Made by a program: the position numbers and the translations under genes | In this document: one piece after another, positions 49,031-60,933 of the stretch | Layout of the letters: each line of letters begins with the position of its first letter | How positions within the stretch are numbered: the first letter of the stretch is position 1 | Notes under the pieces: model-generated | Database searches by the model: none | What the model was told of the DNA's origin: nothing | The model's input: only the letters and a program-made list of their open reading frames with translations | NCBI GenBank assembly: GCA_021604805.1 | Contig: BQJR01000002.1 | Coordinates: forward strand, 133,078-197,077 | DNA length: 64,000 nt | DNA from: Planctomycetota bacterium | GTDB lineage: Bacteria > Planctomycetota > B15-G4 | Reading direction: 5' to 3'

Positions 49031-51811
49031 TCAGGGGATGTGCGCTCGCAGCGCGTTGCTGAGCGAGACGTTCTGCGCAGCGGCGAAGTCCTGGATCGCG
49101 AACTGCATGTCGAAGATCAGTCCCGCGAGGCCACTCGGGAAGCTGGCGAAGGCCAAGCTCCGGCTGCCCGACGCGTTGGTCGTGAAGGCTTTGATCAACG
49201 TCGCGGGGAACGGCACGAGCGTGCCGCCCTTGAAGGCGATCGGGTCGCTCGCGAGGGACGCGAACAGCAACGTCGGCGCGGATGCCGCCGCCAAGCTGAG
49301 CTCCACCGCGCCCGCCGACGCCGGTTGCAAGCTGCCCGTGCCCTGCAGCAGCGGCGCCTGGTCGGTGCCGTTCCAGAGCCCATGGCCGAGGTGCTCCCAA
49401 GGAGACGGCGGCACCGCGCAGCCGGCCCAGCGCGCGACGTAACTGTCGCCACTGCCAGGCACGCTGAGGAACGCGCCGCCGGCGTAGAGCGCGGCGTCTG
49501 CGCCGGTCGCGTCGTCGCTGGCGAGCAGCGCGTGCACGTCGTCGGAGGCGCCGTCGCCGAGGCTCGACCAGAGGCCGTCCCAGCGCGCCACGTGCGGCGC
49601 GGACTGCATGCCCGCCATGTTGAACGTGCCGCCGACGAAGAGCGCCGGTCCGCTCCCGTCGTCGTGAACGGCGAGCGCGGTGCCCGACGCGTGGAATCCC
49701 GGTCCGAAGGTGAGGCCGTCACCGAGCGCGGCCCAACGCACGCCGTTCCACTTGGCAATGCCGACGGCCTCTGCACCGTCGATCTCATCGAAGCTTCCCG
49801 CGAGATAGAGCTCGGGCCCGAAACCCTCGCCGTCGTCGAAGACCGCCAACGCGAAGCCTGACTGCGAGATGAGCGAGCCGACTTCTCCGACCTCGCCCAC
49901 CGCCGACCACCCCCCCACACCGTTCCAGCGCGCGATGCGCTGAGCTGGGACGCCGAGGCCGGCCTTCAGGAACTGACCTGTGACGTACAGCACCGGTCCG
50001 TCGCCGCGCCCGTCGTCGTAGGCTGCCATGTCGAGCACGCTGGGGACGGCGCCGTTGTTGTCGAACACGCCGCCGCCGACATCGCGCCATGAGTTTCCGG
50101 TCCAGCGTGCGACATGCCGCGCCGGCGCTTTGAAGTAGCCGCCCGCGAACAGCTCCGGCCCGTTGCCGAGGTCGAGCACACGCAAGCAGTGCACCTCGTC
50201 GTCGAGGGGTGCGCCGGGCAATGCTGCCCACTGCGAGCCGTCCCAGCGCGCGATGTGTGCAGCGGGCATCCCGTCGGCGAGCGTGAAGCGGCCGCCGGCG
50301 TAGAGCGCGCTGCCGCTGCCATCGTCGAACACCGCGAGGGCGCGCACGGTGCCCGGGAATCCGAAGTAGGCAAGACCGGTGCCCAGCGGCTGCCACACGC
50401 CGTCGACGAAACGCGCGATGCCGCGCAGCGAGGTGTCGCCGTACTGGTTGAACTCGCCGCCGGCGAAGAGCACGGGACCACCGCCGTCGTCGAACTCGGC
50501 GAGCGCGCGCACGCGGTCGTCGAGGTTGAGCGGACCGAGTCGCTCGTAACCGTCGGGGCCCCACGCCGTGACGTGAAAGGCGTCCACGCCGCCGGCCACC
50601 TCGAAGTCGCCAGCGAGGAACAACTTCTCGCCGGAGCCGTCGTCATGCGGGAGCAGCGCGAAGCCCTTGGGGCTGCCGGCGTACAGTCCGCCGCCGAGGC
50701 TGGCCGCGGGCGAGGCCCAACTCGAGCCGTCCCAGTTCGCGAGTCGACCCGCGGCGCTGCCGCCGGCGCTGGTGAGCGAACCGGTGACCCACAGTCGGCC
50801 CTGGTACACGGCGAAGTCGGCGGCCACGAGGTTGTCGAGCGTCTGCAGACCGCCGAGGGAGAGTCCGGTGCCGAGCTTCGAGTAGCCTCCGCCGCCGAAA
50901 CCGTTCCACTTGGCGACGCTGCGCACTTCGCCGGCGCCTTGGATCTCTCTGAAGTTGCCGCCCACGTAGAGCGCGTCGCCGCCGCCGTCGTCGTAGATCT
51001 CGAGACACGCTCCGACGCCGAGTGACGACGCGGCGCCGAGGCCCGGGCCGAGGTTCGACCAAGCGCTGCCGTCCCACCGCGCGATGCTGCGCGCCGACGA
51101 CCCGCCCGCGACCGTGAAGTGCCCGGTGGCGTAGAGCTTCGAGCCCGAGCCGTCGTCGAAGCCACGCAGGGCGCGCACTTGCGGCTGAGCGCTGGTGGCG
51201 AAGTCGAAGTCGACGCCGCCAGCGAGGCTCGACCACGTGCTGCCGTCCCAGCGCGCGATGCCCGACGCGGCCTGGCCGCCGGCGGTCACGAGCACGCCGC
51301 CCGCGAAGAGCGCGGGGCCGCTGCCGTCGTCGAAGACCTCGAGCGCGTAGACCGATCCGAGGATGCCGGTGCCGAGCGCGCTCCAGTTCGCGCCGTCCCA
51401 GCGCGCGAGTCCGCCGGTGGACAGGCCATCCGCGGTCTGGAACTCGCCGCCCACATAGAGGGCGTCGCCGCCGCCGTCATCGAACACGGCGAGCGCGTGC
51501 ACTTGCACGTCGAAGCTCGAGTCGAGTGCACCGCCGACGTTGTCCCACGCCGCGCCGTCCCAGCGCGCGAGCCCGCCCGCGTCGCTCAGTCCCGACGTGG
51601 ATTCGAATCTGCCGCCCACGTAGAGCTGCTCGCCGCTGCCGAGACCATCGTCGAAGGTGGCAAAGGCGAAGCCAGGTCGGTCGAGACCTGCGATGCCGCC
51701 GAAGGTGGGTTGCCACTCGGGATCACAAAGCTGCGCGGCCGCGGCGCTCGTGAGCACAAGCCCCGCGAGCAAAACGCACATCGTCAGCCCAACTCGTCGG
51801 AGGTTGCGCAC
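49031..51811 (-). CDS. Secreted 14-repeat beta-propeller-like protein with shared C-terminal domain
   Basis: Start at GTG 51811 (VRNLRRVGLTMCVLLAGLVLTSAAAAQ) or ATG 51781. There are 14 copies of a ~50-55-aa unit marked by (I/L/V)A(R/K)W(D/N)G..W..LG and F(D)DG.G..LY.GG.F. The C-terminal ~120 aa resemble the other exoprotein C-termini. Confidence 0.8.
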   Translation of the reverse strand: MRNLRRVGLTMCVLLAGLVLTSAAAAQLCDPEWQPTFGGIAGLDRPGFAFATFDDGLGSGEQLYVGGRFESTSGLSDAGGLARWDGAAWDNVGGALDSSFDVQVHALAVFDDGGGDALYVGGEFQTADGLSTGGLARWDGANWSALGTGILGSVYALEVFDDGSGPALFAGGVLVTAGGQAASGIARWDGSTWSSLAGGVDFDFATSAQPQVRALRGFDDGSGSKLYATGHFTVAGGSSARSIARWDGSAWSNLGPGLGAASSLGVGACLEIYDDGGGDALYVGGNFREIQGAGEVRSVAKWNGFGGGGYSKLGTGLSLGGLQTLDNLVAADFAVYQGRLWVTGSLTSAGGSAAGRLANWDGSSWASPAASLGGGLYAGSPKGFALLPHDDGSGEKLFLAGDFEVAGGVDAFHVTAWGPDGYERLGPLNLDDRVRALAEFDDGGGPVLFAGGEFNQYGDTSLRGIARFVDGVWQPLGTGLAYFGFPGTVRALAVFDDGSGSALYAGGRFTLADGMPAAHIARWDGSQWAALPGAPLDDEVHCLRVLDLGNGPELFAGGYFKAPARHVARWTGNSWRDVGGGVFDNNGAVPSVLDMAAYDDGRGDGPVLYVTGQFLKAGLGVPAQRIARWNGVGGWSAVGEVGEVGSLISQSGFALAVFDDGEGFGPELYLAGSFDEIDGAEAVGIAKWNGVRWAALGDGLTFGPGFHASGTALAVHDDGSGPALFVGGTFNMAGMQSAPHVARWDGLWSSLGDGASDDVHALLASDDATGADAALYAGGAFLSVPGSGDSYVARWAGCAVPPSPWEHLGHGLWNGTDQAPLLQGTGSLQPASAGAVELSLAAASAPTLLFASLASDPIAFKGGTLVPFPATLIKAFTTNASGSRSLAFASFPSGLAGLIFDMQFAIQDFAAAQNVSLSNALRAHIP

Positions 51812-52462
51812 GACGCTCTCCCGCGCGCCCGCTCCCCAGCAACCGCGCGGCGCACGCTCGCGCCCTCCGCTCAATCGCAACGGGCGCGCGGCACCTCGAA
51901 ACACGGTGAGTGTCCAGACGACGCCCTCGCGAGGATACAGCGACCCTGTGAACTCGCAAGCTCGCGCGACTGCGAAGCTGAACCTCCGGCCGACGTTGCG
52001 ATTGTTGCCGAGGAGCTGAGCCCTTGCCCAGCGATGTCGGACAGCGCGAGCGCTGAGGCTTCGTGCGACATCATGAGGTTTGCATCACGCGAGGCTCCAC
52101 CATCCGACGAGCATGATGACGGCGGTCAGGTCGTTGAGAAACGGCACACCGGGCTGCATTCAGAGCCCTTGGAGCACGCATTCCCCGTTCGTGTGCTCGC
52201 GACGCGACGACTCGACAACGAGCATCTGGCTCCACATCGCCGCCCTTCAGCTCGCAATCGTACTCTGGTAGGCCAGTGCCGCCACTCCACGCGAAGGCCC
52301 GAGCGTGAGCACCCTCTCCTCGGCCGTCCCCACCAACCGCACCCGGAGGGCGCGCCGTGAGCGAAGGCTGCCGGAATCGAAGCAGGGTTCGCCGCCGCGT
52401 GGCATGCTCGGAACAGCGCGGGCCAAGGCTCGCGCGGGATCTTCCCCACGTGGAGCAGTGCG

Positions 52463-55129
52463 ATGCATCGCCCTCGATCTCTCGATCTGTGTCTCACCCT
52501 GTTCGCACTCACTTGGCTTGTTGCCCCTGCACGTTCGCAGGAGAGCGCCGCACTCTTCGACGCGCCGGTTGTGGTGACCGACCCCTTGAGTCGCTTCGAC
52601 CTGGTGCTCGACCTCGATGCCGACGGCTACGCCGATGCTGTCGAGTGGTGGTGGAGCTCCGCCGACAGCTCCGAGAGCGTGCGAGTGAGCGGCTGGCTCA
52701 ACGATCAGTCGGGCAAGTTGACCAAGACGTGGACGAGCATGCTCGCCATGCCCGAACCCGACCTCGCGTTCGTGGGCGGCTCCGGTGTCGGCAACTTCGA
52801 CGGCGATGCGCGCGACGACTTCGCACTGACCTTCGGCAAGCACGTGTTCGTGTTCTCGTCGAACGGATCGGCGCCACCGACGCAGCTCCTCGGGCTCACG
52901 AGACCTGACACGATCCAATCCACGCTCGTGGCCGACTTCGATCTCGACGGGCTCAGCGACATCGCGATCAACACGCACAAGACCGTTGAGCTGCACTTCA
53001 ACCCAAGCGGCGGCTCGGGTTTCGCCCTGGCCGGAAGCTTCGGCATCGACGGCGAGAACAAGCTCTGGCTCAGTGAAGTGAATGGCGACGACGCGCCCGA
53101 CCTGATGAACGTGGACGGCCCGCAAGTTGTCTTCCACGAGATCGTCAACGGGCAACGCGTGAGCCAGTTCGCGCTCGACCACGAGCTCGGCGGCGACTCG
53201 AACCTCGCGCCGCTCCTGGGCGACATCGATGGCGACGGTGACGACGACGTCGTCGCCTTCCGCGAAGGCTTGTACCGTGTGTTCCGGCGCAGCGGGCCCA
53301 CGACCTTCAACTCCGAACTCGTGCGCGCGGGCGGCCCCGCCACGATGCTCGCCGACGTGGACGGCGACGGCGACCTCGACGGCGCCTGCTGTGCCGGCGG
53401 CGGAGGGGGTGATCCCGGCGCCTTGAAGCAGTCGGCGATGTTCGAGATCTCACTCAACGACGGCACGGGGAACTTCGCCCCGGGCTACGGCATCGTCTCG
53501 CTGGGCACCACCTCCCTGGGCATCGCGGGTGTCGCCGACCTCGATCACGACGGCGACACGGATCTCATCGCCGGCCGCACCGTGTACTACGCCTCCGAGA
53601 ACGGGCTCGGCACACCGCGCCACGTCGAACTCAATCACCAACTGTTCTATGCGCACGACGTGGTCGACCCGGATGGCGACGGCGACACCGACCTGAACTT
53701 CGGCGAAGTGACGTACCTCGCGAACCAGGGTGAAGGCGCTTTCACTTCGAGGTCGACCGACATCGCGACCCCGCCCGTAGGCGTCAAGTGGCGCGGCCCC
53801 GGCTACCCCGGCGACTTCGATGGCGATGGCGACGTCGACCTGTTGCTCAGCAAGTGGACCGGCCAGTTCACGTTCCCGGTGTTCCTCGGCATGCGCCTGC
53901 TGGTCAACAACGGCGCGGGCATGCTCTTCGACGCGGGGGACGCAGCCGCGCCCGAGGTCTTCATGAACGTGAGCGGGCTCACCGACTGGGACGACAACCC
54001 CGACGACTCGGTGATCGCGGATGTCGACGGTGACGGCGACGTCGACCTGATCTGTCGCTCGCTCGAACTCATGACGAGCCGCGTCTTCCTCAACGACGGC
54101 GCCGGCTTCTTCGTCGAAGGCGTGGAGTTCCCGCTGGCTGCCGTGCGTCACGTGGCCGACCTGAACGGTGATGCGCACCCCGACCTCGTGGTGTCTTCCA
54201 CGCAACTCGGTGTGCGCTTCGGCCGCGGCGGCGGGGAGTTCAGCGCCGTGACCTGGCTGCCCGCCAGCCAAACAGAGTTCGAAGACCTCACCGACTGCGG
54301 TGACCTCGACAGTGACGGCGATGTCGACATCGCGCTCGTCGACTCCGCCTCGAACACGATCACGCTGCACCACAACAACGGCGCGGGCAACTTCACCACC
54401 GACACAACCAGCCTCGCCGCGTACACCACGGACGACACGTCCCCCTCGCTGCGCCGCGCCTTGATCTTGGATGTGGATCTCGACGGCCGCAACGACCTGC
54501 TGGTCACGTCGCCGACCGACGCGAGCCCGGCCAGCTACATCTTCCGCCAGCTCCCCGACGGAACGCTCGACGCGCCGCTGATCCAAGTCGTGCGGCCGAC
54601 GGCCTTCGGCGATGTCGACGGAGACGGCGACCTCGACCTGCTCTCCGATCGATTCAGCTTCAACGAACTGTTGCCGACGCTCCCCTCGCGCGTGATCGAC
54701 AACCGCGCGTTCGAGAACCCCGACTCGGGTCGCGTGCTGCAGTTCGGCAGCTCGAAGCCCGGCACCGCAGGGCAAGCGCCGTTGCTCGGCGCCAGCGGGC
54801 CGCTTCGCGTGGGTGACGTCGTGACGATTCACCTCACGGGAGTGCAGGCGGGCCAGCTCGGCGTCGTGAGTGTCGGCCTCAACCAGACCGACTTGCCCAA
54901 CACGCCCTGGTTCAACGTGACCGCTTACACCTGGCCGTGGCTCGCCTTCAAGCTGCTGCCAGCGCCGGGTTCAGGCCAGCTCCCCGGTGACGCGGGGCTG
55001 CAGCTCTCCTACGTGGTCGATCCGAGCTTCCCCGCCGTGGGACCGATCTACCTTCAAGCGATCTTCGACGACCCCGAAGCGATCGCAGGACGCACGTACT
55101 CGAACGGACTCATGCTCGAGCACGAGTGA
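52463..55129 (+). CDS. Secreted FG-GAP/VCBS repeat protein with shared C-terminal domain
   Basis: Signal-like MHRPRSLDLCLTLFALTWLVAPARSQ. More than 12 repeats of the D.DGDGD.D type (LDLDADGYADAV, GDIDGDGDDDVV, ADVDGDGDLDGA, ADLDHDGDTDLI, DPDGDGDTDLN, GDFDGDGDVDLL, ADVDGDGDVDLI, GDLDSDGDVDIA, GDVDGDGDLDLL). Confidence 0.88.
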   Translation: MHRPRSLDLCLTLFALTWLVAPARSQESAALFDAPVVVTDPLSRFDLVLDLDADGYADAVEWWWSSADSSESVRVSGWLNDQSGKLTKTWTSMLAMPEPDLAFVGGSGVGNFDGDARDDFALTFGKHVFVFSSNGSAPPTQLLGLTRPDTIQSTLVADFDLDGLSDIAINTHKTVELHFNPSGGSGFALAGSFGIDGENKLWLSEVNGDDAPDLMNVDGPQVVFHEIVNGQRVSQFALDHELGGDSNLAPLLGDIDGDGDDDVVAFREGLYRVFRRSGPTTFNSELVRAGGPATMLADVDGDGDLDGACCAGGGGGDPGALKQSAMFEISLNDGTGNFAPGYGIVSLGTTSLGIAGVADLDHDGDTDLIAGRTVYYASENGLGTPRHVELNHQLFYAHDVVDPDGDGDTDLNFGEVTYLANQGEGAFTSRSTDIATPPVGVKWRGPGYPGDFDGDGDVDLLLSKWTGQFTFPVFLGMRLLVNNGAGMLFDAGDAAAPEVFMNVSGLTDWDDNPDDSVIADVDGDGDVDLICRSLELMTSRVFLNDGAGFFVEGVEFPLAAVRHVADLNGDAHPDLVVSSTQLGVRFGRGGGEFSAVTWLPASQTEFEDLTDCGDLDSDGDVDIALVDSASNTITLHHNNGAGNFTTDTTSLAAYTTDDTSPSLRRALILDVDLDGRNDLLVTSPTDASPASYIFRQLPDGTLDAPLIQVVRPTAFGDVDGDGDLDLLSDRFSFNELLPTLPSRVIDNRAFENPDSGRVLQFGSSKPGTAGQAPLLGASGPLRVGDVVTIHLTGVQAGQLGVVSVGLNQTDLPNTPWFNVTAYTWPWLAFKLLPAPGSGQLPGDAGLQLSYVVDPSFPAVGPIYLQAIFDDPEAIAGRTYSNGLMLEHE

Positions 55130-55164
55130 GCGCGCGCGGAGCAACGTGCTCGCCCGACGCTACA

Positions 55165-55232
55165 CCCCGACTGCCGCCGCGCTCCACGCCGACTGCCGCC
55201 GCGTTACGCCCCGACCGCCGCCGCGCTCCACA
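55165..55232. repeat. Three tandem ~20-24-nt copies of the terminal coding sequence of the aconitase-family gene (CCGAC[TC]GCCGCCGCG[CT]T[CA]C[AG])
   Basis: ccgactgccgccgcgctccacg / ccgactgccgccgcgttacg / ccccgaccgccgccgcgctccaca, read directly. The third copy is the start of the left direct repeat. The intact gene has a single copy at 58951-58970. Confidence 0.75.
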
Positions 55233-55637
55233 TCCCCGCCGTGTAGCTCGCGATCTTTCCTTCGATCGCCGACACGCTGACTTGCTCGGTGGTTTCCGAC
55301 ACGCCGGGGCCGCAGCCGATGCACGCGCCGCAGCCCGGGTTGATGATCGTGACGCCGGCGGCCTTGAAGGTGTCGAGCCAGCCGCGCTCTTCGGCGACGC
55401 GTTGCGTGGCCTCGCTGCCGAACTGGATGAAGAACTCCACGCCGTCGGCGACTTTCTTGCCCGCGGCGACGGCTTCGCTCATCACGCGCGCGTACATCTC
55501 GAAGTCGTCGACCTTGCTGGCGGTGCACGAACCGCCGTAGGCGATGTCGATGAACACATCGCCGAGATCGTCGACGATGGCTGCGTTCGTCGGGTCGCTC
55601 GGGATGCCCTTGTTGGGGTCACCGGGGTGCGCCACCA
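55204..55637 (-). pseudogene. Displaced 3'-terminal fragment of an aconitase-family gene (duplicate of 58942-59453) with a 78-nt internal deletion
   Basis: The translation VAHPGDPNKGIPSDPTN...YGGSCTASKVDDFEMYARVMSEAVAAGKKVADGVEFFIQFGSEATQRVAEERGWLDTFKAAGVTIINPGCGACIGCGPGVSETTEQVSVSAIEGKIASYTAGMWSAAAV matches the last ~170 aa of the 58942-60933 product. It lacks the first ~500 aa and the 26 aa NRNFQGRSGPGKLYLASPLTVAASAI. The N-terminal 20 aa of ORF 55204..55707 are unrelated junction sequence. Confidence 0.85.
55213..55637. repeat. Left direct repeat (DR-L) flanking the low-GC island
   Basis: 425 nt. By-eye alignment to 58951-59453 gives roughly 90% identity. Identity is highest near the gene's stop and decays toward the island. 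A 78-nt gap lies between two gatcgc microhomologies. Confidence 0.85.
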
Positions 55638-55750
55638 GCGGCCACTGCGTGGCCAGGCAGAGGACTCGACGGCTGCGGTTGCTTGCTCGTCGAGCAACAC
55701 TCACCATTCAAGACTCGATGCAACCAGCAATCCAACAAGCAAAGGGTCAT

Positions 55751-57157
55751 TCAATCAAAGAGGAGCAGCTGGTTCTCGTGGCTGCCGGAGCGAACAGAAA
55801 TCCACTGCGCCAACTCCGCAGCACGAAATCCGGATCGACTAAGGCGCTTTCCACGCCCGGGATTAGCAATCCCGACACAAACCCCAGCCAGCATTAGAGC
55901 TCGAGTGCATTCGATTACGTTCTTGTCTATGTGCTCGATGTCACCATTAAAGTTTACCGGATGACCACGAGACATCAGTGTAAAGCGATGCCCATCATCG
56001 TCTTTGCAGATATAGTCACCGAAAACTTTTGCATAGCGCGAACTCGGCGAGTCCACAGCACGCCACGCGGGCGAGAGCTCCAACTCGGGCATCTCCAAGA
56101 GCCCCCGATACTCGACGTCGGAGGACGACACACTTGCGAGGAATAGCGGCTTTGAATACCCCCACTTATGGAGCATCGCGACACCAGCCGAACCACCTGA
56201 CACCTTCCCCGTCGCACCGATTACTACCCAGTAATCCACTGACCGATGAGCTAGTGGCTGAATGAGATGTGAGCGTTGCAATAGCTGCACGCGAGATGCA
56301 TCACGATCGAGCCCTACAACCGAAGCAGCTCTATCAGCCAAACCCTCGCAGGTGGCCGCACCAATTGCTCCAAGCCCAACAACAACTACACCAGCCTGAG
56401 CCAATCGACAATCATATATTGCAAGTCGGTTTTCGATCTCACGCAGGCTCGCCTCGGCGATTGCTCGAGCTTCATACCTCCGCTTCCATCGAGTTCTCGC
56501 TGGAGCGAGGAAAGAGGAATCTTTGGAGATACCCCCTTCGGCGCGCATTCGCCTGAATGAATCAAGCATCTCTACACCGCTAGTCGTTTGCTCAATCACA
56601 ACAACCCTAGCGCGAATGCCAGCATTCTTGACCGACTGCCCCAGGATCCCTCCATCATCAAGCACAATCAAGCAATCGACATCAGATCCCTCATGCACCC
56701 GTACAGCACCTTCATCAACCACATCTCGAGCTACGGACTGTAAGGCATCGCCTGTCGGCATTCTCGCCATGGACGCAGCATAGTCATCCGGTTGATCAAT
56801 AACTGTGCAGCCCCAGCGCCGCAGGACCTGAACCACAAAGGGGTGCGCCGAGTACGGTTTTGTTCCGAGCACACAACGACTTGGCTCCAATCCCAGTTTC
56901 AGCAATGCTGCGACAAGCGGAAGCTGCGACGCGAGACAGTGCTGCATCCCCACGAGCACGCAACGCTTTAATGAGACTTTTGAATAGGTCGCTAGCACCT
57001 GCCCCAGCATGGGCATGCGGTAGGCATCTAGAAGTGCGCGTTCGGCAACCTCGGCAAGAGCAGGATTCGCGAGCGTTCGCTGAGCCCAGCACTCTCGCTG
57101 CAAGACGACTGACGGGTAGTCAGGCTTCATTGACAGACTTTTCATCAGCATCCTCAC
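55751..57157 (-). CDS. Divergent S-adenosyl-L-homocysteine-hydrolase-fold NAD-binding protein (island gene 3)
   Basis: 468 aa. Block-wise collinear with SAH hydrolase: RMPMLGQVLATYSKVSLKRCVLVGMQHCLASQLPLVAALLKLG versus EMPGLM..Y...[37 protein letters not shown] versus LDDGGDL; EQTTSGV versus EETTTGV; VVVVGLGAIGAATCEGL...VVGLDRD versus VAVVAGYGDVGKGCAQAL...VIITEIDP; SSSDVEY versus GHFDVEI; SRGHPVNF versus AEGRLVNL. The start is ambiguous: GTG 57157, or ATG at 57151, 57145 or 57130. Confidence 0.75.
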   Translation of the reverse strand: MRMLMKSLSMKPDYPSVVLQRECWAQRTLANPALAEVAERALLDAYRMPMLGQVLATYSKVSLKRCVLVGMQHCLASQLPLVAALLKLGLEPSRCVLGTKPYSAHPFVVQVLRRWGCTVIDQPDDYAASMARMPTGDALQSVARDVVDEGAVRVHEGSDVDCLIVLDDGGILGQSVKNAGIRARVVVIEQTTSGVEMLDSFRRMRAEGGISKDSSFLAPARTRWKRRYEARAIAEASLREIENRLAIYDCRLAQAGVVVVGLGAIGAATCEGLADRAASVVGLDRDASRVQLLQRSHLIQPLAHRSVDYWVVIGATGKVSGGSAGVAMLHKWGYSKPLFLASVSSSDVEYRGLLEMPELELSPAWRAVDSPSSRYAKVFGDYICKDDDGHRFTLMSRGHPVNFNGDIEHIDKNVIECTRALMLAGVCVGIANPGRGKRLSRSGFRAAELAQWISVRSGSHENQLLLFD

Positions 57158-58523
57158 TCGGAGAAATGCCTATCCCGTAATTCTTGCCGAGCTCGCAGTA
57201 AAGGGAAGCCAACTCAGCCAAATACTCCTGCAGCTTGCGAGCGTCTCCAACAATCGATTCAATTGGAAGCGCAGGCTCACTCGCGAAGTCAATCGTCAAG
57301 CACACTGGGCAACCACGGCGCGAGCTGCGTGAAGTCCAGTTCTTGTCCGGCACACCAAGAATGGCGACGATGCCGATCATGCGCTCCTCGAACCATCTAG
57401 CTACCTTTTCATCACCTTCAAGTCGGTAGTATAGAATCTCCTCACCCGCTTTTCCAAGACAGCGTACAGCAACGGGCTCCTGAGGATCGTCAAAAGGATC
57501 CTCATCATCTGCACCCTGAAAAACGAACCAACGCCGGGTAGGAAGCGGAAACGCTGGCTGCAGAAACTGCCTAAGTCGAAAGTCTCCCTCGCGCTCTAGA
57601 GGCTCAATGTAGGTTCGAGCATTCAGTGATTTAGAAACACCCCAAACCGTTGCACTACAGGCGTACCTATCGATTGAAACGGCGGCGTACGCGATTTTCT
57701 GCAGCAAAGCCCGCCAGTACATTCCAAATACGTTTGATGCTTCGGAGGAATCTTCTGAACCTGAAGCATCTTGGAGGTACGCCCGAAACCCTTTCAAGAA
57801 TGCGCTTGAAGGTGATAGCTCGCCCGCAATCTCTTCAAACAGCGTTTCAACCGAGCGCCTTGCAATGGGCGACCGGCGAATCCCAGCGAACAGGACTTCA
57901 CCCGCTCGGGTAGAGCGGCTCGCTGCGAGATGCGCCTCGGCCTGAACGGCAATCACGCAGTTACGCTTGAGATCTATCAGAGGCACGCCACTGAATGACC
58001 TCTCAGCGAGGACCTTGTCAGTGACGACCACAGCGTCGTACTCAGAAGTCACCTGACTGACGGGGCGGAGTTGAGGTTTCGACTCATCACTAAAGGCAAG
58101 AAGCGCAAAGTCGCCCGCGACACATGCCTTCACTCTCTCAGTTGAGAGCCTCTCAATCGAAAGCGCCTGGCGCTCGCCCGGGGATGCCGCTGAGTCACCC
58201 CCCTTCACATTCGGAGGGTGAGAGTCAAGCTTAAGCACTGCAAAATCTACATAGTGAGGTCCGAACTTGCGATAACAGACCTCCTCGACAGTGAACCCGA
58301 TCAAATCATCTGCTTGATCGGGGAATCGCACTTTGAGGTCGCGGTTAATTGCGTTTCCAAGTGCAAACAGGTGACCTGGTGCAACAACCCGATGAGCTCC
58401 CTGATCACGCCCACCTCCCAACCGAGCGAGCCAGCAGTGACAAATTCGCCGCCCACCATCAACAACAGTGCCCTCTGCTGTGACTTCAACTAACTCGGCA
58501 AGCGAATAGGAAATATTATCCAC
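57120..58523 (-). CDS. Trypsin-fold (S1/Trypsin_2-like) serine protease with an unassigned ~250-aa C-terminal domain (island gene 2)
   Basis: 467 aa. Candidate catalytic triad in canonical order and context: His in VVAPGHLFALGN, Asp in VDFAVLKLD, Ser in ERSFSGVPLIDLKRNCVIAV (the GxSGxP position). I recognise no family for the region from about aa 215 to the end. Confidence 0.75.
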   Translation of the reverse strand: MDNISYSLAELVEVTAEGTVVDGGRRICHCWLARLGGGRDQGAHRVVAPGHLFALGNAINRDLKVRFPDQADDLIGFTVEEVCYRKFGPHYVDFAVLKLDSHPPNVKGGDSAASPGERQALSIERLSTERVKACVAGDFALLAFSDESKPQLRPVSQVTSEYDAVVVTDKVLAERSFSGVPLIDLKRNCVIAVQAEAHLAASRSTRAGEVLFAGIRRSPIARRSVETLFEEIAGELSPSSAFLKGFRAYLQDASGSEDSSEASNVFGMYWRALLQKIAYAAVSIDRYACSATVWGVSKSLNARTYIEPLEREGDFRLRQFLQPAFPLPTRRWFVFQGADDEDPFDDPQEPVAVRCLGKAGEEILYYRLEGDEKVARWFEERMIGIVAILGVPDKNWTSRSSRRGCPVCLTIDFASEPALPIESIVGDARKLQEYLAELASLYCELGKNYGIGISPSEDADEKSVNEA

Positions 58524-58836
58524 CGGTAACCTGCCACTGTGCTCGAATCCTCACTGCCCCCGTTCCTCCGCACTTAATGATCCACTTCATTCCGGTTTCA
58601 CACGAAAGCTCCGCACCGAGTTCAACTTCAAGTGAAGTCGGACGAATGCCACTTGCATGCCCCACTGCGGCCGAACCGATTCTATGCACCAAACCCGCCA
58701 AGACTTGACCGATCTCTCCAAGTCGTTCGGGATTAAGTGAAGCCGCTCCGCTTTCAGCAGTTGCAACCCGCCCATCGGGGCTGGCTTGCTCGATCAGAAC
58801 GTCGACACCGTCGATGCACATTGACACGTACTGCAT
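58516..58836 (-). CDS. Small trypsin-co-occurring (Trypco / CU044_2847-like) protein (island gene 1)
   Basis: 106 aa with a GGAGGA RBS 5 nt upstream of the ATG. The pattern VDVLIEQAS...(~45 aa)...RPTSLEVELGAELSCETGMKWIIKCGGTGAVRIRAQW resembles, from memory, small proteins encoded next to trypsin-like proteases. It overlaps the protease start by 8 nt. Confidence 0.6.
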   Translation of the reverse strand: MQYVSMCIDGVDVLIEQASPDGRVATAESGAASLNPERLGEIGQVLAGLVHRIGSAAVGHASGIRPTSLEVELGAELSCETGMKWIIKCGGTGAVRIRAQWQVTGG

Positions 58837-58941
58837 CCCATCCTCCGTTAAACGTCCCCGTCCTTGCCCCTCCAGGTTTGAGCCAGCGCAGGATAGCAGA
58901 CCATTTGAGGAGGGGACCTAAAGCCACTCAGCGCCCCTCGA

Positions 58942-60933
58942 TTACCTGACGACCGCCGCCGCGCTCCACATCCCCGCCGTGTAGCTCGCGATCTTTCCCT
59001 CGATCGCTGACGCCGCCACCGTGAGCGGCGACGCGAGATACAGCTTGCCCGGCCCCGAACGCCCTTGGAAGTTGCGGTTGATCGCCGACACGCTGACTTG
59101 CTCAGTGGTCTCCGACACGCCCGGCCCGCAGCCGATGCACGCGCCGCAGCCCGGGTTGATGATCGTGACGCCGGCGGCCTTGAAGGTGTCGAGCCAGCCG
59201 CGCTCTTCGGCCACGGCTTGCGTGGCCTTGCTGCCGAACTGGATGAAGAACTCCACGCCGTCGGCGACCTTCTTGCCCGCGGCGACGGCTTCGCTCATCA
59301 CGCGCGCGTACATCTCGAAGTCGTCGACCTTGCCGGCGGTGCAGGAGCCGCCGTAGGCGATGTCGATGGCCACGTCGCCGAGCTCGTGCACGAAGGCGCC
59401 GTTGGTCGGGTCGCTGGGGATGCCGGCGTTCGGGTCACCGGGGTGCGCCACCATCGGGCGCAGCGTGGACAAGTCGATCGTGTGGACGCCGCCGTCGTAG
59501 ACCGCGCCTTCGTCGGGGGCGACGAGCGCGGCCATGAGCTCGGCCTTGCTGCGCGCGTCGCTACGGTTGGCGAGGATCCAGTCGACGAGCGCTTCGTCGC
59601 CCTCGCAGATGCCCGACTTGGCCGTGCACTCGGTGGCCATGTTGGCGAGCGTGGCGCGTTCGTCGAGCGACAGCTTCGCGAGGCCGGGGCCGCCGAACTC
59701 CATCATGCGATCGAGCGTGACCTCGTGCTTCGCGTACTTCTCGAGGATGTGCAGCATCACGTCTTTCGCCGAACAGTCGGCGGGCAACTCGCCCACCAGC
59801 TCGAAGCGCACGCTCTCGGCCACTTGCACGAAGGTGCTGCCCGACGCGATCAAGGACGCGTACTCGGTGGCCCCCACGCCGTAGGTCAGCGCGTTGTTGC
59901 CGCCGCCCATGCAGGTGTGACTGTCGGTGGCTTGGATGAAGTCGCCCGGATCCACGAAGTCGCGGCGCGCGACCTCGTGACAGATGCCGGGGCTGATGCC
60001 GTCGCGGCTCTGGTAGTCGCGCACCCCAGTGTGCTGCATGAACTCGGTCTGCAGCTCGCGCAGCGTGCCGATCTTGTCGGCGAAGGGCATGAAGCGCTTC
60101 ACGCCGTCGGCATACAGCAGGTGGTCTTCGAAGACGGCGAACTTGCTCGCGTCGGGCAACGTGTAGTCGTTCCCGTACTCGCGACGTAGGAACTCGTGCA
60201 CTTGCGCGGTCGTGAACTCGTGGCTGTAGCCGCCGTCGACCTTGGCCATGAGCGCGTCGCCGGGCTTCACGTAGTCGCCCTCGCCGATCATGTGCGCGGC
60301 GATCATCTTCTCGCCCATCGTCATCGGGCGCTTCGGCGTGCCGGGCGCGGGCACACTGATCTCGCCGGCCTTGAGCGCCTTCGCGAACGGGAACAAGCCG
60401 CCCATCTCCAACATGATCTTGGTGACGGGGTCGTAGCGCCCGGTGAACTCGTCGATCTCGATCGACTCACCGGCCTGCAAGCGCGCGAGCTGCGCGTGGT
60501 CGCCCATGAGCTGCCCGAGGTTGATGTTGTTGCGCTCGTGGATCGGCGCGAAGGACGCCGCGAACACGTATTTGATGCCGCTGAACTTCTCGCACTGCGG
60601 CGCCGTCTCGCGCGAGCTGCCGGTGCCTTTGCGGTAACCGCTCACGATGGCTTCGAAGTTGCCGTCCATGAGGCCGCGCTCGGGGATCACGCGTTCGCCG
60701 TCTTTGAGCAAGCCGGCGTAGGCGTTGAGCGCGATGTCTTCGGGGCGGTGACTGAAGCACACCCAGGCCGGGGTCATCACGTCGGTGTTGATGTCGTCGA
60801 GCAGGTCGTCGACCGAGAGGTCTTCCATGCGCAGGTTCAGCTCGCCGCGCACTTGCTTGGCGATCAGGTCGAGGTCCTTGGTGAGGAACAAGACGCGCTT
60901 GGTCGGGTCGAGCTGGATCGTGCGAGCGGCCAT
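58942..60933 (-). CDS. Aconitase/3-isopropylmalate-dehydratase family protein, swivel (LeuD-like) domain N-terminal to catalytic domains
   Basis: Starts at an internal ATG (MAARTIQLDPTKRV) of ORF 58942..60996. Swivel-domain motif GTGSSRE...ASFAPIHERNNINLG. Catalytic motifs ATDSHTCMGG, YGGSCTAGK, NPGCGACIGCG and SAINRNFQGRSG are intact. Confidence 0.88.
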   Translation of the reverse strand: MAARTIQLDPTKRVLFLTKDLDLIAKQVRGELNLRMEDLSVDDLLDDINTDVMTPAWVCFSHRPEDIALNAYAGLLKDGERVIPERGLMDGNFEAIVSGYRKGTGSSRETAPQCEKFSGIKYVFAASFAPIHERNNINLGQLMGDHAQLARLQAGESIEIDEFTGRYDPVTKIMLEMGGLFPFAKALKAGEISVPAPGTPKRPMTMGEKMIAAHMIGEGDYVKPGDALMAKVDGGYSHEFTTAQVHEFLRREYGNDYTLPDASKFAVFEDHLLYADGVKRFMPFADKIGTLRELQTEFMQHTGVRDYQSRDGISPGICHEVARRDFVDPGDFIQATDSHTCMGGGNNALTYGVGATEYASLIASGSTFVQVAESVRFELVGELPADCSAKDVMLHILEKYAKHEVTLDRMMEFGGPGLAKLSLDERATLANMATECTAKSGICEGDEALVDWILANRSDARSKAELMAALVAPDEGAVYDGGVHTIDLSTLRPMVAHPGDPNAGIPSDPTNGAFVHELGDVAIDIAYGGSCTAGKVDDFEMYARVMSEAVAAGKKVADGVEFFIQFGSKATQAVAEERGWLDTFKAAGVTIINPGCGACIGCGPGVSETTEQVSVSAINRNFQGRSGPGKLYLASPLTVAASAIEGKIASYTAGMWSAAAVVR
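58951..59453. repeat. Right direct repeat (DR-R), part of the intact aconitase-family gene
   Basis: 503 nt, equal to DR-L plus the 78-nt segment missing in DR-L. Confidence 0.85.

What the first reader, a model, noticed from the sequence alone, without database searches (positions are those of the whole stretch)
55751..57157. SAH-hydrolase fold retained, catalytic set apparently remodelled
The 468-aa protein is collinear with S-adenosylhomocysteine hydrolase through both the substrate and NAD domains. Retained blocks are ..MP.L....YS...LK......G..H......L...L..LG, LDDGG, E.TT.GV, the Rossmann V.V.G.G..G......L......V...D, and .G..VN.

By my manual alignment, several positions that are catalytic in canonical SAHH differ. 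EETTTG becomes EQTTSG. The His of GHFDVEI is Ser (SSSDVEY). The KSKFDN Lys/Asp segment has no clear equivalent (RWKRRYEARA).

This suggests a binding module or an altered chemistry on an adenosine-containing ligand rather than housekeeping AhcY. Its presence in a foreign low-GC operon with a protease supports a non-metabolic role.
Basis: partly seen in the sequence, partly recalled or inferred. Interest (0 to 1): 0.8.

Follow-up and report, generated by a model that had tools for sequence, protein, structure and literature searches.

The report
Remodelled SAH-hydrolase-like protein in defence operon
This gene encodes a true structural relative of S-adenosylhomocysteine hydrolase with a conserved but altered active site; it is the third gene of a horizontally acquired operon that also encodes a pore-forming "Pepco" protein and its presumed activating protease, so it probably belongs to a cell-suicide or immune module rather than to housekeeping metabolism.

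Summary
The ORF is real: 55751-57157 (-), 468 aa at most, with a likely start at ATG 57145 giving 464 aa. It is a genuine SAHH-fold homologue (profile-profile 99.6%, E=7e-24; AF2 pLDDT 87; the top 50 Foldseek PDB hits are all SAHH or AHCYL).

The protein is not a lone decayed enzyme. It belongs to a large unnamed family (1,573 clusters at E<=1e-10) with its own invariant set: H73, Y102, D167, E189, Q190, T191, K225, E229, S345, E349, plus an NAD-type Rossmann motif.

It sits in a 3.3-kb island (GC3 0.50-0.54 versus 0.87-0.93 in the flanks) behind Pepco/Trypco1 and a 467-aa protein. That protein's C-terminal domain belongs to a previously undescribed domain family found immediately upstream of SAHH-like genes in 11 loci (leave-one-out E=1.7e-9).

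The same Trypco1 -> Trypsin_2 -> SAHH-like triad recurs on an unrelated contig (L152). Other family members are fused to NACHT-ankyrin or lie next to a DUF4062(NADase)-NACHT gene.

Best reading (about 0.45): an NAD-linked ligand-handling subunit that gates protease release of the Pepco pore. Ligand and chemistry are unknown.

The parts
55751..57157 (-). SAHH-like gene ('SAHL'). Longest ORF is 468 aa (GTG 57157). Probable start is ATG 57145 (464 aa), overlapping the end of the upstream gene by 26 nt. Key residues, in 468-aa numbering with the human SAHH equivalent: H73 (=H55), K100 (<-N80), Y102 (<-F82), S103 (=S83), D167/D168 (=D130/D131), E189 (=E155), Q190 (<-E156), T191 (=T157), K225 (=K186), E229 (<-D190), G261-x-G263-x-x-G266 with D284 (<-E243), T316 (=T276), S345 (<-H301), D347, E349, N402 (=N346).
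   Evidence: ORF. Start choice. Homology and residue map. Structure. Conservation.
57879..58523 (-). N-terminal ~215 aa of the 467-aa middle gene: putative trypsin-like serine protease domain. Candidate triad is H45 (GAHRVV) or H51, D93 (VDFAVLKLD) and S178 (FSGVPL). Inferred, not demonstrated.
   Evidence: No Pfam, NCBIfam or PDB hit. Smith-Waterman against the L152 protease is not above shuffles. hhalign against a 4-sequence Trypsin_2 alignment matches only the Asp-motif region, probability 22%. Support comes from position next to Trypco1 and from the syntenic, Trypsin_2-positive 444-aa gene in L152.
57135..57716 (-). C-terminal domain (about aa 270-463) of the middle gene. It is a member of a previously undescribed 'SAHL-partner' domain family that is always encoded immediately upstream of, and usually overlapping, an SAHH-like gene.
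   Evidence: BLASTP against the L152 protease C-terminus: E=4e-9. Partner profile against the L152 protease: hhalign 94.4%, E=8.9e-8. Leave-one-out HMM of 9 partner domains hits the window protein at E=1.7e-9 among 10,417 ORFs. No Pfam or PDB relative.
58516..58836 (-). Pepco / Trypco1 small protein (106 aa), overlapping the start of the middle gene by 8 nt. It carries I97-R98 near the C-terminus.
   Evidence: Pfam PF19493 Trypco1, E=1.7e-8, 35.4 bits against a cut-off of 24.6. Homologous to the Trypco1 ORF of L152, E=6e-6. I97-R98. Function of Pepco: bioRxiv 10.1101/2025.11.14.688446.
55640..58941 (.). Horizontally acquired low-GC island carrying the three co-directional, overlapping genes.
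   Evidence: GC is 0.54-0.56 and GC3 0.50-0.54, against GC 0.66-0.68 and GC3 0.87-0.93 in the flanking genes. The island assembles as its own 3,492-nt contig in an independent assembly.
55204..55707 (-). Remnant copy of the 3' end of the aconitase-family gene. It forms a direct repeat (95-97% identical, with 78 nt missing) with the 3' end of the intact gene at 58942-59379, so the two copies bracket the island.
   Evidence: the repeat finder families D1 and D6. Pfam Aconitase on both copies.

Best explanation
The gene encodes the NAD-linked, ligand-handling subunit of a three-gene conflict (abortive-infection type) module: Pepco (Trypco1) -> trypsin-like protease fused to a 'partner' domain -> SAHH-like protein (SAHL).

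Shown:
- SAHL has the two-domain SAHH fold.
- It keeps the NAD Rossmann site and the residues that in SAHH carry out 3'-oxidation of the ribose (K186=K225, D190->E229, H55=H73, D131=D168, T157=T191).
- It replaces the residues that handle the 5'-substituent, water and adenine (E156->Q190, H301->S345, N80->K100, T57->L75, E59->S77, no H353). These replacements are conserved family-wide.
- SAHL genes of this branch are always preceded by a partner-domain gene. That partner is either membrane-anchored or, as here and in L152, fused to a protease that follows Pepco.

Inferred mechanism:
- SAHL docks on the partner domain.
- When a ribose-containing ligand binds, or is partly turned over, SAHL undergoes SAHH-type domain closure, possibly trapped in the NADH state because the second half-reaction residues are absent. 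The ligand would appear or disappear during infection. The basic pocket suggests it may carry an anionic 5'-group, such as an NAD- or ADP-ribose-derived or SAM/SAH-related molecule.
- That switch licenses the protease, which removes the short C-terminal tail of Pepco after I97.
- Trimmed Pepco forms a membrane pore and kills or arrests the cell.
For: - Fold and homology.
- A conserved alternative active site rather than decay. There are 19 invariant columns in 65 diverse members. H73, Y102, D167, E189, T191, K225, E229, S345 and E349 are present in at least 124 of 129 further sequences, and Q190 in 120 of 129. All of these are present in every partner-linked member.
- The family is large: 2,284 clusters at E<=1e-3 and 1,573 at E<=1e-10.
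- Operon: three overlapping co-directional genes share a foreign composition.
- Pepco is identified above the Pfam threshold. It is experimentally a protease-activated pore whose proteases are fused to varied sensors.
- The triad recurs in L152 as Trypco1 / Trypsin_2 / SAHL with overlapping ends. The L152 SAHL is 30% identical to the window's.
- The partner domain is shared between the window protease, the L152 protease and eight stand-alone partners. All eight stand-alone partners carry an N-terminal hydrophobic segment and the two protease fusions carry none. The membrane-acting part therefore varies while partner plus SAHL stay constant, which leaves SAHL as the constant input side.
- Immune-type neighbourhoods and fusions. 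SAHL is fused to NACHT-ankyrin in L050. In L143 the order is SAHL, DUF4062-NACHT, HIT, and DUF4062 is a TIR-like NADase of antiphage systems. Partner-SAHL pairs lie beside serine recombinases, integrases, ImmA/IrrE plus HTH, Patatin, RHS and transposases.
Against: - There is no experiment, and the ligand is unknown.
- PADLOC recognises none of the three proteins.
- The protease domain of the window protein is not statistically recognisable.
- Only two complete triads were found. Most of the roughly 135 SAHL loci examined have no protease, Pepco or partner and sit in mixed contexts such as two-component regulators and DUF4440.
- In the NACHT fusion, SAHL occupies the N-terminal position that is normally the effector, not the sensor.
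- Fully conserved catalytic-type residues fit a true enzyme at least as well as a pure sensor.
- Methyltransferase fusions in the short branch point to ordinary SAM/SAH chemistry for at least part of the family.
- The window member deviates at several otherwise conserved positions: V219P, P231R, N396S, F399H.
Confidence: 0.45

Rival explanations
1. SAHL is a second, enzymatic death effector rather than the sensor. It would be a latent NAD-dependent enzyme switched on by proteolysis (for example removal of its N-terminal helices) or by induced oligomerisation. It would destroy an essential ribose-containing metabolite by oxidation followed by elimination of the 5'-group, for example a nucleotide, NAD-derived compound or SAM.
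For: - In L050 the full SAHL domain (residues 18-417, E=2.2e-52) sits at the N-terminus of a NACHT-ankyrin protein, which is the usual effector position.
- The invariant catalytic-type residues argue for turnover.
- Protease-linked modules are known to unleash enzymatic effectors such as MBL-fold and alpha/beta hydrolases.
- SAHH enzymes need oligomerisation to complete the NAD site (established knowledge), which suits activation by proximity.
- Basic residues K100, R221, R223, R226 and R227 around the pocket could bind phosphates.
Against: - The operon already has an effector (Pepco), yet it would then have no recognisable sensor.
- In the stand-alone pairs the partner carries the membrane segment.
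- No precedent or assay exists for such chemistry in the SAHH fold.
Confidence: 0.25
2. SAHL is a catalytically silent scaffold or pseudoenzyme, comparable to the eukaryotic SAHH-like proteins AHCYL1/2 (IRBIT). It would keep NAD only as a structural cofactor and merely regulate or stabilise the protease-partner protein.
For: - The best sequence-profile hits in PDB are the SAHH-like domains of AHCYL (3gvp, 3mtg; E about 3e-28).
- Two residues regarded as catalytic in SAHH are replaced.
- There is tight genetic coupling to a partner domain.
Against: Pseudoenzymes usually show relaxed conservation in the former active site. Here both the retained and the replaced active-site positions are almost invariant across more than a thousand divergent clusters and several architectures.
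Confidence: 0.15
3. SAHL is a working SAH (or close analogue) hydrolase of a divergent type. It would be carried in the island as a metabolic passenger or to support a methyltransferase, with no functional link to Pepco and the protease.
For: - Short-branch members are fused to SAM-dependent methyltransferase domains, N- or C-terminally (P0081, P0093).
- One short member lies between secY and adk in a ribosomal-protein operon.
- One source names a member 'S-adenosylhomocysteine hydrolase'.
- The oxidation core is retained.
Against: - The genes overlap and share a foreign composition.
- The triad recurs, and the partner domain is obligatorily adjacent.
- E156, H301, H353, T57 and E59 are lost.
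- The protein fails all curated SAHH models.
Confidence: 0.1

Closest known systems
S-adenosyl-L-homocysteine hydrolase (AhcY/SAHH; Pfam PF05221 + PF00670)
   Same: - Two-domain fold with the NAD domain inserted.
- Collinear motifs: H55, DDGG, E-x-TT-x-G, the SVTK-type Lys plus an acid four residues later, GxGxxG plus an acidic residue, TG, and G..VN.
- Profile-profile probability 99.6%.
- All top Foldseek hits are SAHH.
   Different: - About 15% identity, and no hit to the curated models.
- Replacements: E156->Q, H301->S, D190->E, N191->A/S, N80->K, T57->L, E59->S, and no H353.
- The C-terminal tail cannot be aligned.
- Different genomic role: a foreign operon, partner domain, Pepco-protease, and NACHT links.
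AHCYL1/AHCYL2 (IRBIT family), eukaryotic SAHH-like regulatory proteins
   Same: An SAHH-like domain used outside the methyl cycle as a regulator. These are the top PDB sequence-profile hits (3gvp, 3mtg).
   Different: They are eukaryotic. Their role as regulators of the IP3 receptor and ion transporters is from my own knowledge. The prokaryotic family here has its own invariant residue set and different partners. No specific relationship beyond the shared SAHH ancestry was shown.
Pepco (Trypco1/Trypco2)-protease modules, e.g. Streptomyces subrutilus SsPepco-SsAvs4 (bioRxiv 10.1101/2025.11.14.688446)
   Same: - A small Pepco gene lies immediately upstream of a (presumed) trypsin-like protease that carries an extra C-terminal region.
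- Pepco has an Ile-Arg pair at 97-98, as at the mapped SsPepco cleavage site.
- The module is horizontally mobile.
   Different: The described sensors are STAND ATPases, FGE domains and peptidoglycan-binding domains. Here the protease is fused to a novel partner domain and is followed by an SAHH-like gene. The protease domain itself is too divergent to be recognised.
STAND/NLR-type bacterial immune proteins with enzymatic N-terminal domains, including DUF4062 (TIR-like NADase)-NACHT proteins (bioRxiv 10.64898/2026.05.01.722283)
   Same: Relatives of the window protein are fused N-terminally to NACHT-ankyrin (L050) or encoded directly upstream of DUF4062-NACHT plus a HIT hydrolase (L143).
   Different: The window locus has no NTPase. 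The link is by family membership only.
S-inosyl-L-homocysteine hydrolase (archaeal SAHH variant; PDB 7r3a)
   Same: A precedent that the SAHH fold can shift substrate specificity. It is also hit by the family profile (E=2.9e-17).
   Different: By my own knowledge it keeps the canonical catalytic set. It is a methyl-cycle enzyme, not part of a conflict operon.

Membership tests
SAHH / AhcY (EC 3.13.2.1) | Two-domain SAHH fold (substrate domain plus inserted NAD domain) | tested here: met
   AF2 pLDDT 87.1, pTM 0.89. Foldseek top 50 are all SAHH/AHCYL, E about 1e-12. hhalign 99.6%, 352 columns.
SAHH / AhcY (EC 3.13.2.1) | Scores above the curated thresholds of Pfam AdoHcyase / AdoHcyase_NAD or the NCBIfam SAHH models | tested here: not met
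   No SAHH model is reported even at E<=1; only generic Rossmann hits at residues 257-297. Among 65 family members, 15 touch AdoHcyase_NAD and 5 touch AdoHcyase at E<=0.01.
SAHH / AhcY (EC 3.13.2.1) | NAD site: GxGxxG and an acidic residue at the end of beta-2 (E243), T276, N346 | tested here: met
   G261/G263/G266, D284, T316 and N402 align with them. They are conserved in at least 122 of 129 sequences, with T/S at position 316.
SAHH / AhcY (EC 3.13.2.1) | Catalytic Lys186 with Asp190 four residues later | tested here: met
   K225 aligns with K186. E229 aligns with D190, a conservative Asp->Glu change. Both are present in 128 of 129 sequences.
SAHH / AhcY (EC 3.13.2.1) | His55 and Asp131 | tested here: met
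   H73 and D168 align, with D167 = D130. H is present in 125 of 129, and D/E at position 168 in 124 of 129.
SAHH / AhcY (EC 3.13.2.1) | Glu156 (second Glu of EETTTG) | tested here: not met
   It is Q190, and Gln is present in 120 of 129 family sequences.
SAHH / AhcY (EC 3.13.2.1) | His301 (GHFD.E) | tested here: not met
   It is S345, present in 128 of 129.
SAHH / AhcY (EC 3.13.2.1) | Adenine and 5'-pocket residues Thr57, Glu/Gln59, Asn80, His353 | tested here: not met
   They correspond to L75, S77 and K100. No conserved His lies opposite H353, though the alignment there has low confidence.
SAHH / AhcY (EC 3.13.2.1) | C-terminal tail (Lys426/Tyr430) completing the neighbouring subunit's NAD site; tetramer | tested here: inconclusive
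   The C-terminal 35 residues are not aligned and have low pLDDT. Oligomeric state is not testable here.
SAHH / AhcY (EC 3.13.2.1) | Reversible hydrolysis of SAH | not testable with these tools
   Needs an enzyme assay or complementation.
Pepco (Trypco1/2)-protease antiviral module | Small Pepco/Trypco protein | tested here: met
   PF19493 Trypco1, 35.4 bits against a cut-off of 24.6, E=1.7e-8.
Pepco (Trypco1/2)-protease antiviral module | Adjacent trypsin-like (or caspase-like) protease | tested here: inconclusive
   The window protein has no Pfam, NCBIfam or PDB hit, and pairwise and profile tests of its N-terminus are not significant. However, the syntenic gene in L152 is Trypsin_2-positive and shares the C-terminal domain (E=4e-9). 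H/D/S motifs occur in the right order.
Pepco (Trypco1/2)-protease antiviral module | Conserved Ile just before the cleavage site near the Pepco C-terminus | tested here: inconclusive
   I97-R98 are present. They align with V-R in the L152 Pepco. No alignment with SsPepco itself was possible.
Pepco (Trypco1/2)-protease antiviral module | Protease-dependent Pepco cleavage and toxicity; phage protection | not testable with these tools
   Experimental. PADLOC models (2023) do not recognise the locus.
Uncharacterised prokaryotic SAHH-like family (defined here) | Invariant set H73, Y102, D167, G169, E189, Q190, T191, G194, K225, E229, GxGxxG, G317, S345, E349, G398 | tested here: met
   All are present in the window protein.
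Partner-linked branch of that family | A partner-domain gene immediately upstream, usually overlapping | tested here: met
   A leave-one-out HMM hits the window's upstream protein at E=1.7e-9. The same arrangement is seen in L064, L066, L070, L145, L146, L148, L149, L150, L151 and L152.

The most novel reading that the evidence does not exclude
Partner domain plus SAHH-like protein is a previously unrecognised two-gene immune or conflict core. In it, an NAD-containing SAHH-fold protein acts as a nucleoside- or nucleotide-triggered redox and conformational switch: it performs only the first (oxidative) half-reaction and locks shut. The output is membrane attack, delivered either by the partner's own transmembrane segment or, after domain swapping, by a protease that matures the Pepco pore. 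The same switch would have been recruited into NACHT-type and NADase-linked systems.
Probability: 0.25. Interest if true: 0.85.

Novelty: new variant of a known kind. Interest (0 to 1): 0.7.

Why it matters
SAHH is regarded as one of the most conserved, single-purpose enzymes of the methyl cycle. This analysis shows a very large prokaryotic sister family with a conserved, different active site. It has no name, no curated model and no literature.

One branch of that family is hard-wired to a new partner domain and plugs into recognised immune hardware: the Pepco pore plus protease, NACHT NTPases, and a TIR-like NADase neighbour.

If the proposed role is right, three things follow:
- A new sensor or enzyme class is added to protease-effector defence modules, whose inputs are mostly unknown.
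- A ribose-containing metabolite is implicated as an infection signal or target.
- A new chemistry, or a ligand-trapping use, is defined for the SAHH fold.

The work also provides concrete constructs: the three window genes, the L152 triad, and homologues in cultured strains such as Legionella yabuuchiae, Solirubrobacter phytolaccae, Promicromonospora sp. AC04 and Streptomyces sp. NPDC051546.

Tried and rejected
- Single-sequence searches of the target gave only a GxGxxG match (Pfam, NCBIfam, PADLOC, PDB phmmer).
- The word-index homology search found one relative for the target, almost only true SAHHs for the family profile, and only the query itself for the protease.
- The search for related loci with the broad alignments A2 and A3 failed for lack of a conserved stretch. 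It worked with the 6-sequence alignment A4.
- There are no close relatives of the target in JGI metagenomes. There are no family members in viral contigs and no tblastn hits in plasmids for the target or the protease.
- AF2 of the protease without an alignment was useless (pLDDT 36), so no fold search was run on it.
- Pfam at E<=10 on the two halves of the protease found nothing.
- A regex and HMM screen for trypsin-like neighbours across 135 loci found only L005. That protein carries a lipoprotein signal and is probably coincidental.
- I first read GHPVNF as the equivalent of SAHH GHPSF (H353). hhalign instead aligns it with GRLVNL (N346), so I dropped that idea.
- I first took H51 as the catalytic His of the protease. 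The local alignment with L152 favours H45.
- I tested whether the N-terminal extensions of long SAHLs match the protease or Pepco. They do not. They also have no Pfam domain.
- The promoter and terminator scan gave nothing above chance.
- Literature searches for SAHH-like proteins in defence or NACHT contexts found nothing relevant.
Full report
**1. The object**

The finding's coordinates hold an intact ORF on the minus strand, 55751-57157, 468 aa from a GTG. Three in-frame ATGs follow within ten codons. The one at 57145 has a GAGGA five bases upstream and is the start called in an independent assembly (464 aa). The public annotation of the source genome is a Planctomycetota MAG, DHS20C15. It lists only a 162-aa C-terminal fragment of this gene (GJM21372.1).

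**2. Is it SAHH-like?**

On its own the protein matches only generic Rossmann models around residues 257-297. It matches no SAHH model in Pfam or NCBIfam, even at E<=1. PDB phmmer gives only a GxGxxG match. The word-index search of 5.8 billion proteins found a single relative, P0001 (27% identity).

Profiles settle the question:
- A two-sequence profile already returns SAHH entries almost exclusively from PDB (E=1.3e-6, collinear over residues 47-330).
- The exhaustive HMMER search found 2,284 cluster representatives at E<=1e-3, 1,573 at E<=1e-10 and 243 at E<=1e-30.
- A 65-sequence family profile hits SAHH and the SAHH-like domains of AHCYL2/3 at E about 3e-28 over nearly the full length.
- hhalign of the family against 20 genuine SAHHs gives 99.6% probability, E=7e-24 and 352 aligned columns.
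- With the family alignment, AlphaFold2 gives pLDDT 87.1 and pTM 0.89. The 50 best Foldseek matches in PDB are all SAHH or AHCYL (E about 1e-12, TM 0.6-0.73).

**3. Residue map**

Human SAHH residue numbers and roles come from my own knowledge of the SAHH literature. The motifs themselves are visible in the SAHH consensus. From:
- Retained: H73=H55, S103=S83, D167/D168=D130/D131, E189=E155, T191=T157, K225=K186, G261/263/266=G220/222/225, T316=T276, D347=D303, E349=E305, N402=N346.
- Conservative changes: E229<-D190, D284<-E243.
- Replaced: L75<-T57, S77<-E59, K100<-N80, Y102<-F82, Q190<-E156, A230<-N191, S345<-H301.
- H353 has no His counterpart, though the alignment is of low confidence there.

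The third claim, that there is no Lys/Asp equivalent, is wrong.

These are not private changes of a decaying gene. Nineteen columns are invariant in the 65 diverse members. In 129 further sequences, H73, Y102, D167, E189, T191, K225, E229, S345 and E349 are present in at least 124, and Q190 in 120. K100 marks a sub-group (GK-YS in about 50 sequences, DI-Y[ST] in about 80).

The pattern is that the ribose 3'-oxidation and NAD machinery is kept, while the 5'-group, water and adenine residues are exchanged for a different invariant set. That argues for a conserved alternative function at the same site.

**4. The family**

No source gives a meaningful name: the entries read 'hypothetical protein', with one 'S-adenosylhomocysteine hydrolase' and one generic NAD-binding label. 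Pfam and NCBIfam have no dedicated model, and literature searches found nothing.

Members occur in many bacterial phyla and some archaea. Three forms are seen:
- A short form of about 370 aa is seen, for example, in Patescibacteria and Woesearchaeota. One copy lies between secY and adk, and some are fused to SAM-methyltransferase domains.
- A solitary form of about 430-460 aa has variable neighbours. Two-component regulators are adjacent in several loci, DUF4440 in a few, and an unknown protein of about 420 aa in some.
- A longer form of 520-600 aa has an N-terminal extension. The window protein resembles this form most closely (27-30% identity, E 1e-26 to 1e-35, and a shared insertion after SSSD.E).

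**5. The operon in the window**

Three co-directional, overlapping genes lie in a 3.3-kb island:
- Pepco/Trypco1, 58516-58836 (Pfam 35.4 bits against a cut-off of 24.6).
- A 467-aa protein, 57120-58523.
- SAHL.

Their GC3 is 0.50-0.54, against 0.87-0.93 in the flanking genes. The island is bracketed by a direct duplication of the 3' end of an aconitase-family gene. It assembles as a separate 3.5-kb contig in another assembly.

Pepco is, according to a 2025 preprint, a beta-barrel pore protein. It is activated when an adjacent trypsin-like protease removes its C-terminal tail after a conserved Ile (I97|R98 in SsPepco). [quoted passage not shown] The window Pepco has I97-R98.

**6. The middle protein**

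It is an orphan by sequence: only itself is found, with no Pfam, NCBIfam, PADLOC or PDB hit. AF2 without an alignment failed.

Its N-terminal ~215 residues show a trypsin-like order of motifs: GAH at position 45 (or GH at 51), VDFAVLKLD at 93 and FSGVPL at 178. This is not statistically significant, so the protease assignment is an inference.

Its C-terminal half could be placed:
- Several long SAHL genes are preceded by an overlapping gene of 260-385 aa with no Pfam domain.
- These upstream proteins are homologous to one another (E 1e-20 to 1e-28). They share the motifs SQGKANLF, LGTTHILGIP and ITVDLR.
- All eight start with a hydrophobic membrane-type segment.
- A profile of nine such domains, built without the window sequence, hits the window protein (about residues 270-422) at E=1.7e-9 among 10,417 ORFs.

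**7. Recurrence**

The locus of P0043 (L152, an unrelated contig) encodes Trypco1, then a 444-aa Trypsin_2-positive protein, then a 520-aa SAHL. The gene ends overlap.
- Its protease C-terminus matches the window's at E=4e-9 and matches the partner profile at 94% probability, E=9e-8.
- Its Pepco matches the window's at E=6e-6.

The triad is therefore a conserved arrangement, and partner domain plus SAHL is its constant core. That core is seen in 11 distinct loci: the window, L152, L064, L066, L070, L145, L146, L148, L149, L150 and L151. Only the N-terminus of the partner varies: a membrane segment, or a protease preceded by Pepco.

The neighbourhoods of these pairs are typical of mobile and defence regions. 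They include serine recombinases, an integrase, ImmA/IrrE-HTH pairs, Patatin, RHS and transposases.

Two further links to immune hardware were found:
- A 2,452-aa protein has a complete SAHL domain (residues 18-417, E=2e-52) followed by NACHT and ankyrin repeats (L050).
- An operon encodes SAHL, then DUF4062-NACHT, then a HIT hydrolase (L143). DUF4062 has recently been described as a TIR-like NADase of antiphage systems.

**8. Interpretation**

Shown:
- SAHH fold.
- A conserved, remodelled active site with the NAD and oxidation core retained.
- Foreign origin of the operon.
- Pepco identity.
- Partner-domain membership of the upstream protein.
- Recurrence of the triad.
- Immune-type fusions and neighbours in the family.

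Inferred:
- The middle protein is an active protease.
- SAHL binds the partner domain.
- SAHL's ligand state controls the protease.

I favour a sensor or switch role (about 0.45) for three reasons. The operon already has an effector (Pepco) and otherwise lacks a sensor. Partner plus SAHL stay constant while the membrane-acting output varies. SAHH-type domain closure on ligand binding is a ready-made switch.

The retained first-half-reaction residues and the missing second-half residues suggest ligand trapping in the NADH state. The more basic pocket (K100, and loss of E156) hints at an anionic 5'-group.

The main rival (about 0.25) is that SAHL is itself an enzymatic effector, as its N-terminal position in the NACHT fusion suggests. 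An inert scaffold (0.15) fits poorly with the conservation. A passenger SAH hydrolase (0.10) fits poorly with the synteny.

**9. Verdict**

The interpretation, not housekeeping AhcY but altered function in a non-metabolic operon, is supported in outline. The site is conserved rather than degenerate, and the ligand is unknown.

The case is a new variant of known kinds: an SAHH-superfamily protein, and a Pepco-protease module with a new input. It comes with an unreported partner domain and an unreported, very large family.

Noticed in passing
window 55204-55707 versus 58942-59460; also 55158-55231: The low-GC island is bracketed by a direct duplication of the 3' end of the aconitase-family gene, 95-97% identical, with 78 nt missing in the downstream remnant. 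Next to the remnant, a 22-nt unit resembling the gene's extreme 3' end (58940-58969) is repeated three times in tandem. This looks like the scar of one or more site-specific insertions at the gene's 3' end, but no integrase lies in the island.
   Followed up: partly
window 55751-57157: The public annotation of the source MAG (Planctomycetota bacterium DHS20C15) lists only a 162-aa C-terminal fragment of this gene (GJM21372.1). The ORF is intact in the window and was called as 464 aa in an independent Logan assembly. This is probably a gene-calling artefact in foreign-composition DNA.
   Followed up: partly
L145 6111-7004; L146 6190-7023; L148 5918-6694; L151 5148-6011; L149 about 5230-5849; L150 4850-6004; L064; L066: A previously undescribed protein family of 260-385 aa has an N-terminal membrane segment and invariant SQGKANLF, LGTTHILGIP and T.DL motifs. 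It has no Pfam or PDB relative and is always encoded directly upstream of a long SAHH-like gene. The protease-fused versions (window, L152) have lost the SQGK and GTTH motifs.
   Followed up: partly
L050 6419-13774: A 2,452-aa alphaproteobacterial protein contains a full SAHH-like domain (residues 18-417), a NACHT domain (566-750) and a long ankyrin-repeat array.
   Followed up: partly
L143 6001-11371: An operon encodes an SAHH-like protein (683 aa, with an unknown 260-aa N-terminal region), then a DUF4062 (TIR-like NADase)-NACHT protein (849 aa), then a HIT-family hydrolase (241 aa). This is an NAD- or nucleotide-centred arrangement.
   Followed up: no
L001 10001-11011; P0081; P0093; L141 6001-7104: Short-form family members appear in quite different settings. 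One lies between secY and adk in a ribosomal-protein operon of a small-genome organism. Two are fused to SAM-dependent methyltransferase domains. One lies beside a ParE toxin, RadC and an Eco57I-type methyltransferase. The short form may have a different role, possibly truly SAH-related.
   Followed up: no
L019, L024, L025, L027, L047, L049: In several Gammaproteobacteria and Legionellales-type loci, the solitary SAHH-like gene is adjacent to, or overlaps, two-component genes (a LuxR-type response regulator or a histidine kinase). In L024, L027, L031, L033 and L055 it is also adjacent to a conserved unknown protein of about 420 aa.
   Followed up: partly
L005 6088-6903: In a Longimicrobium MAG, the gene upstream of the SAHH-like gene is a Trypsin_2 protein with a lipoprotein-type signal (LSGC). 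It lacks the partner domain and has no Pepco, so the adjacency may be coincidental.
   Followed up: partly
window 49031-51904 (-) and 52463-55129 (+): Two very large repeat proteins (957 and 888 aa), rich in D-G-D/GDGD and 'ARWDG'-type repeats, flank the island on its low-coordinate side. By eye they look like FG-GAP/VCBS-like or beta-propeller-type secreted proteins. No domain search was run on them.
   Followed up: no
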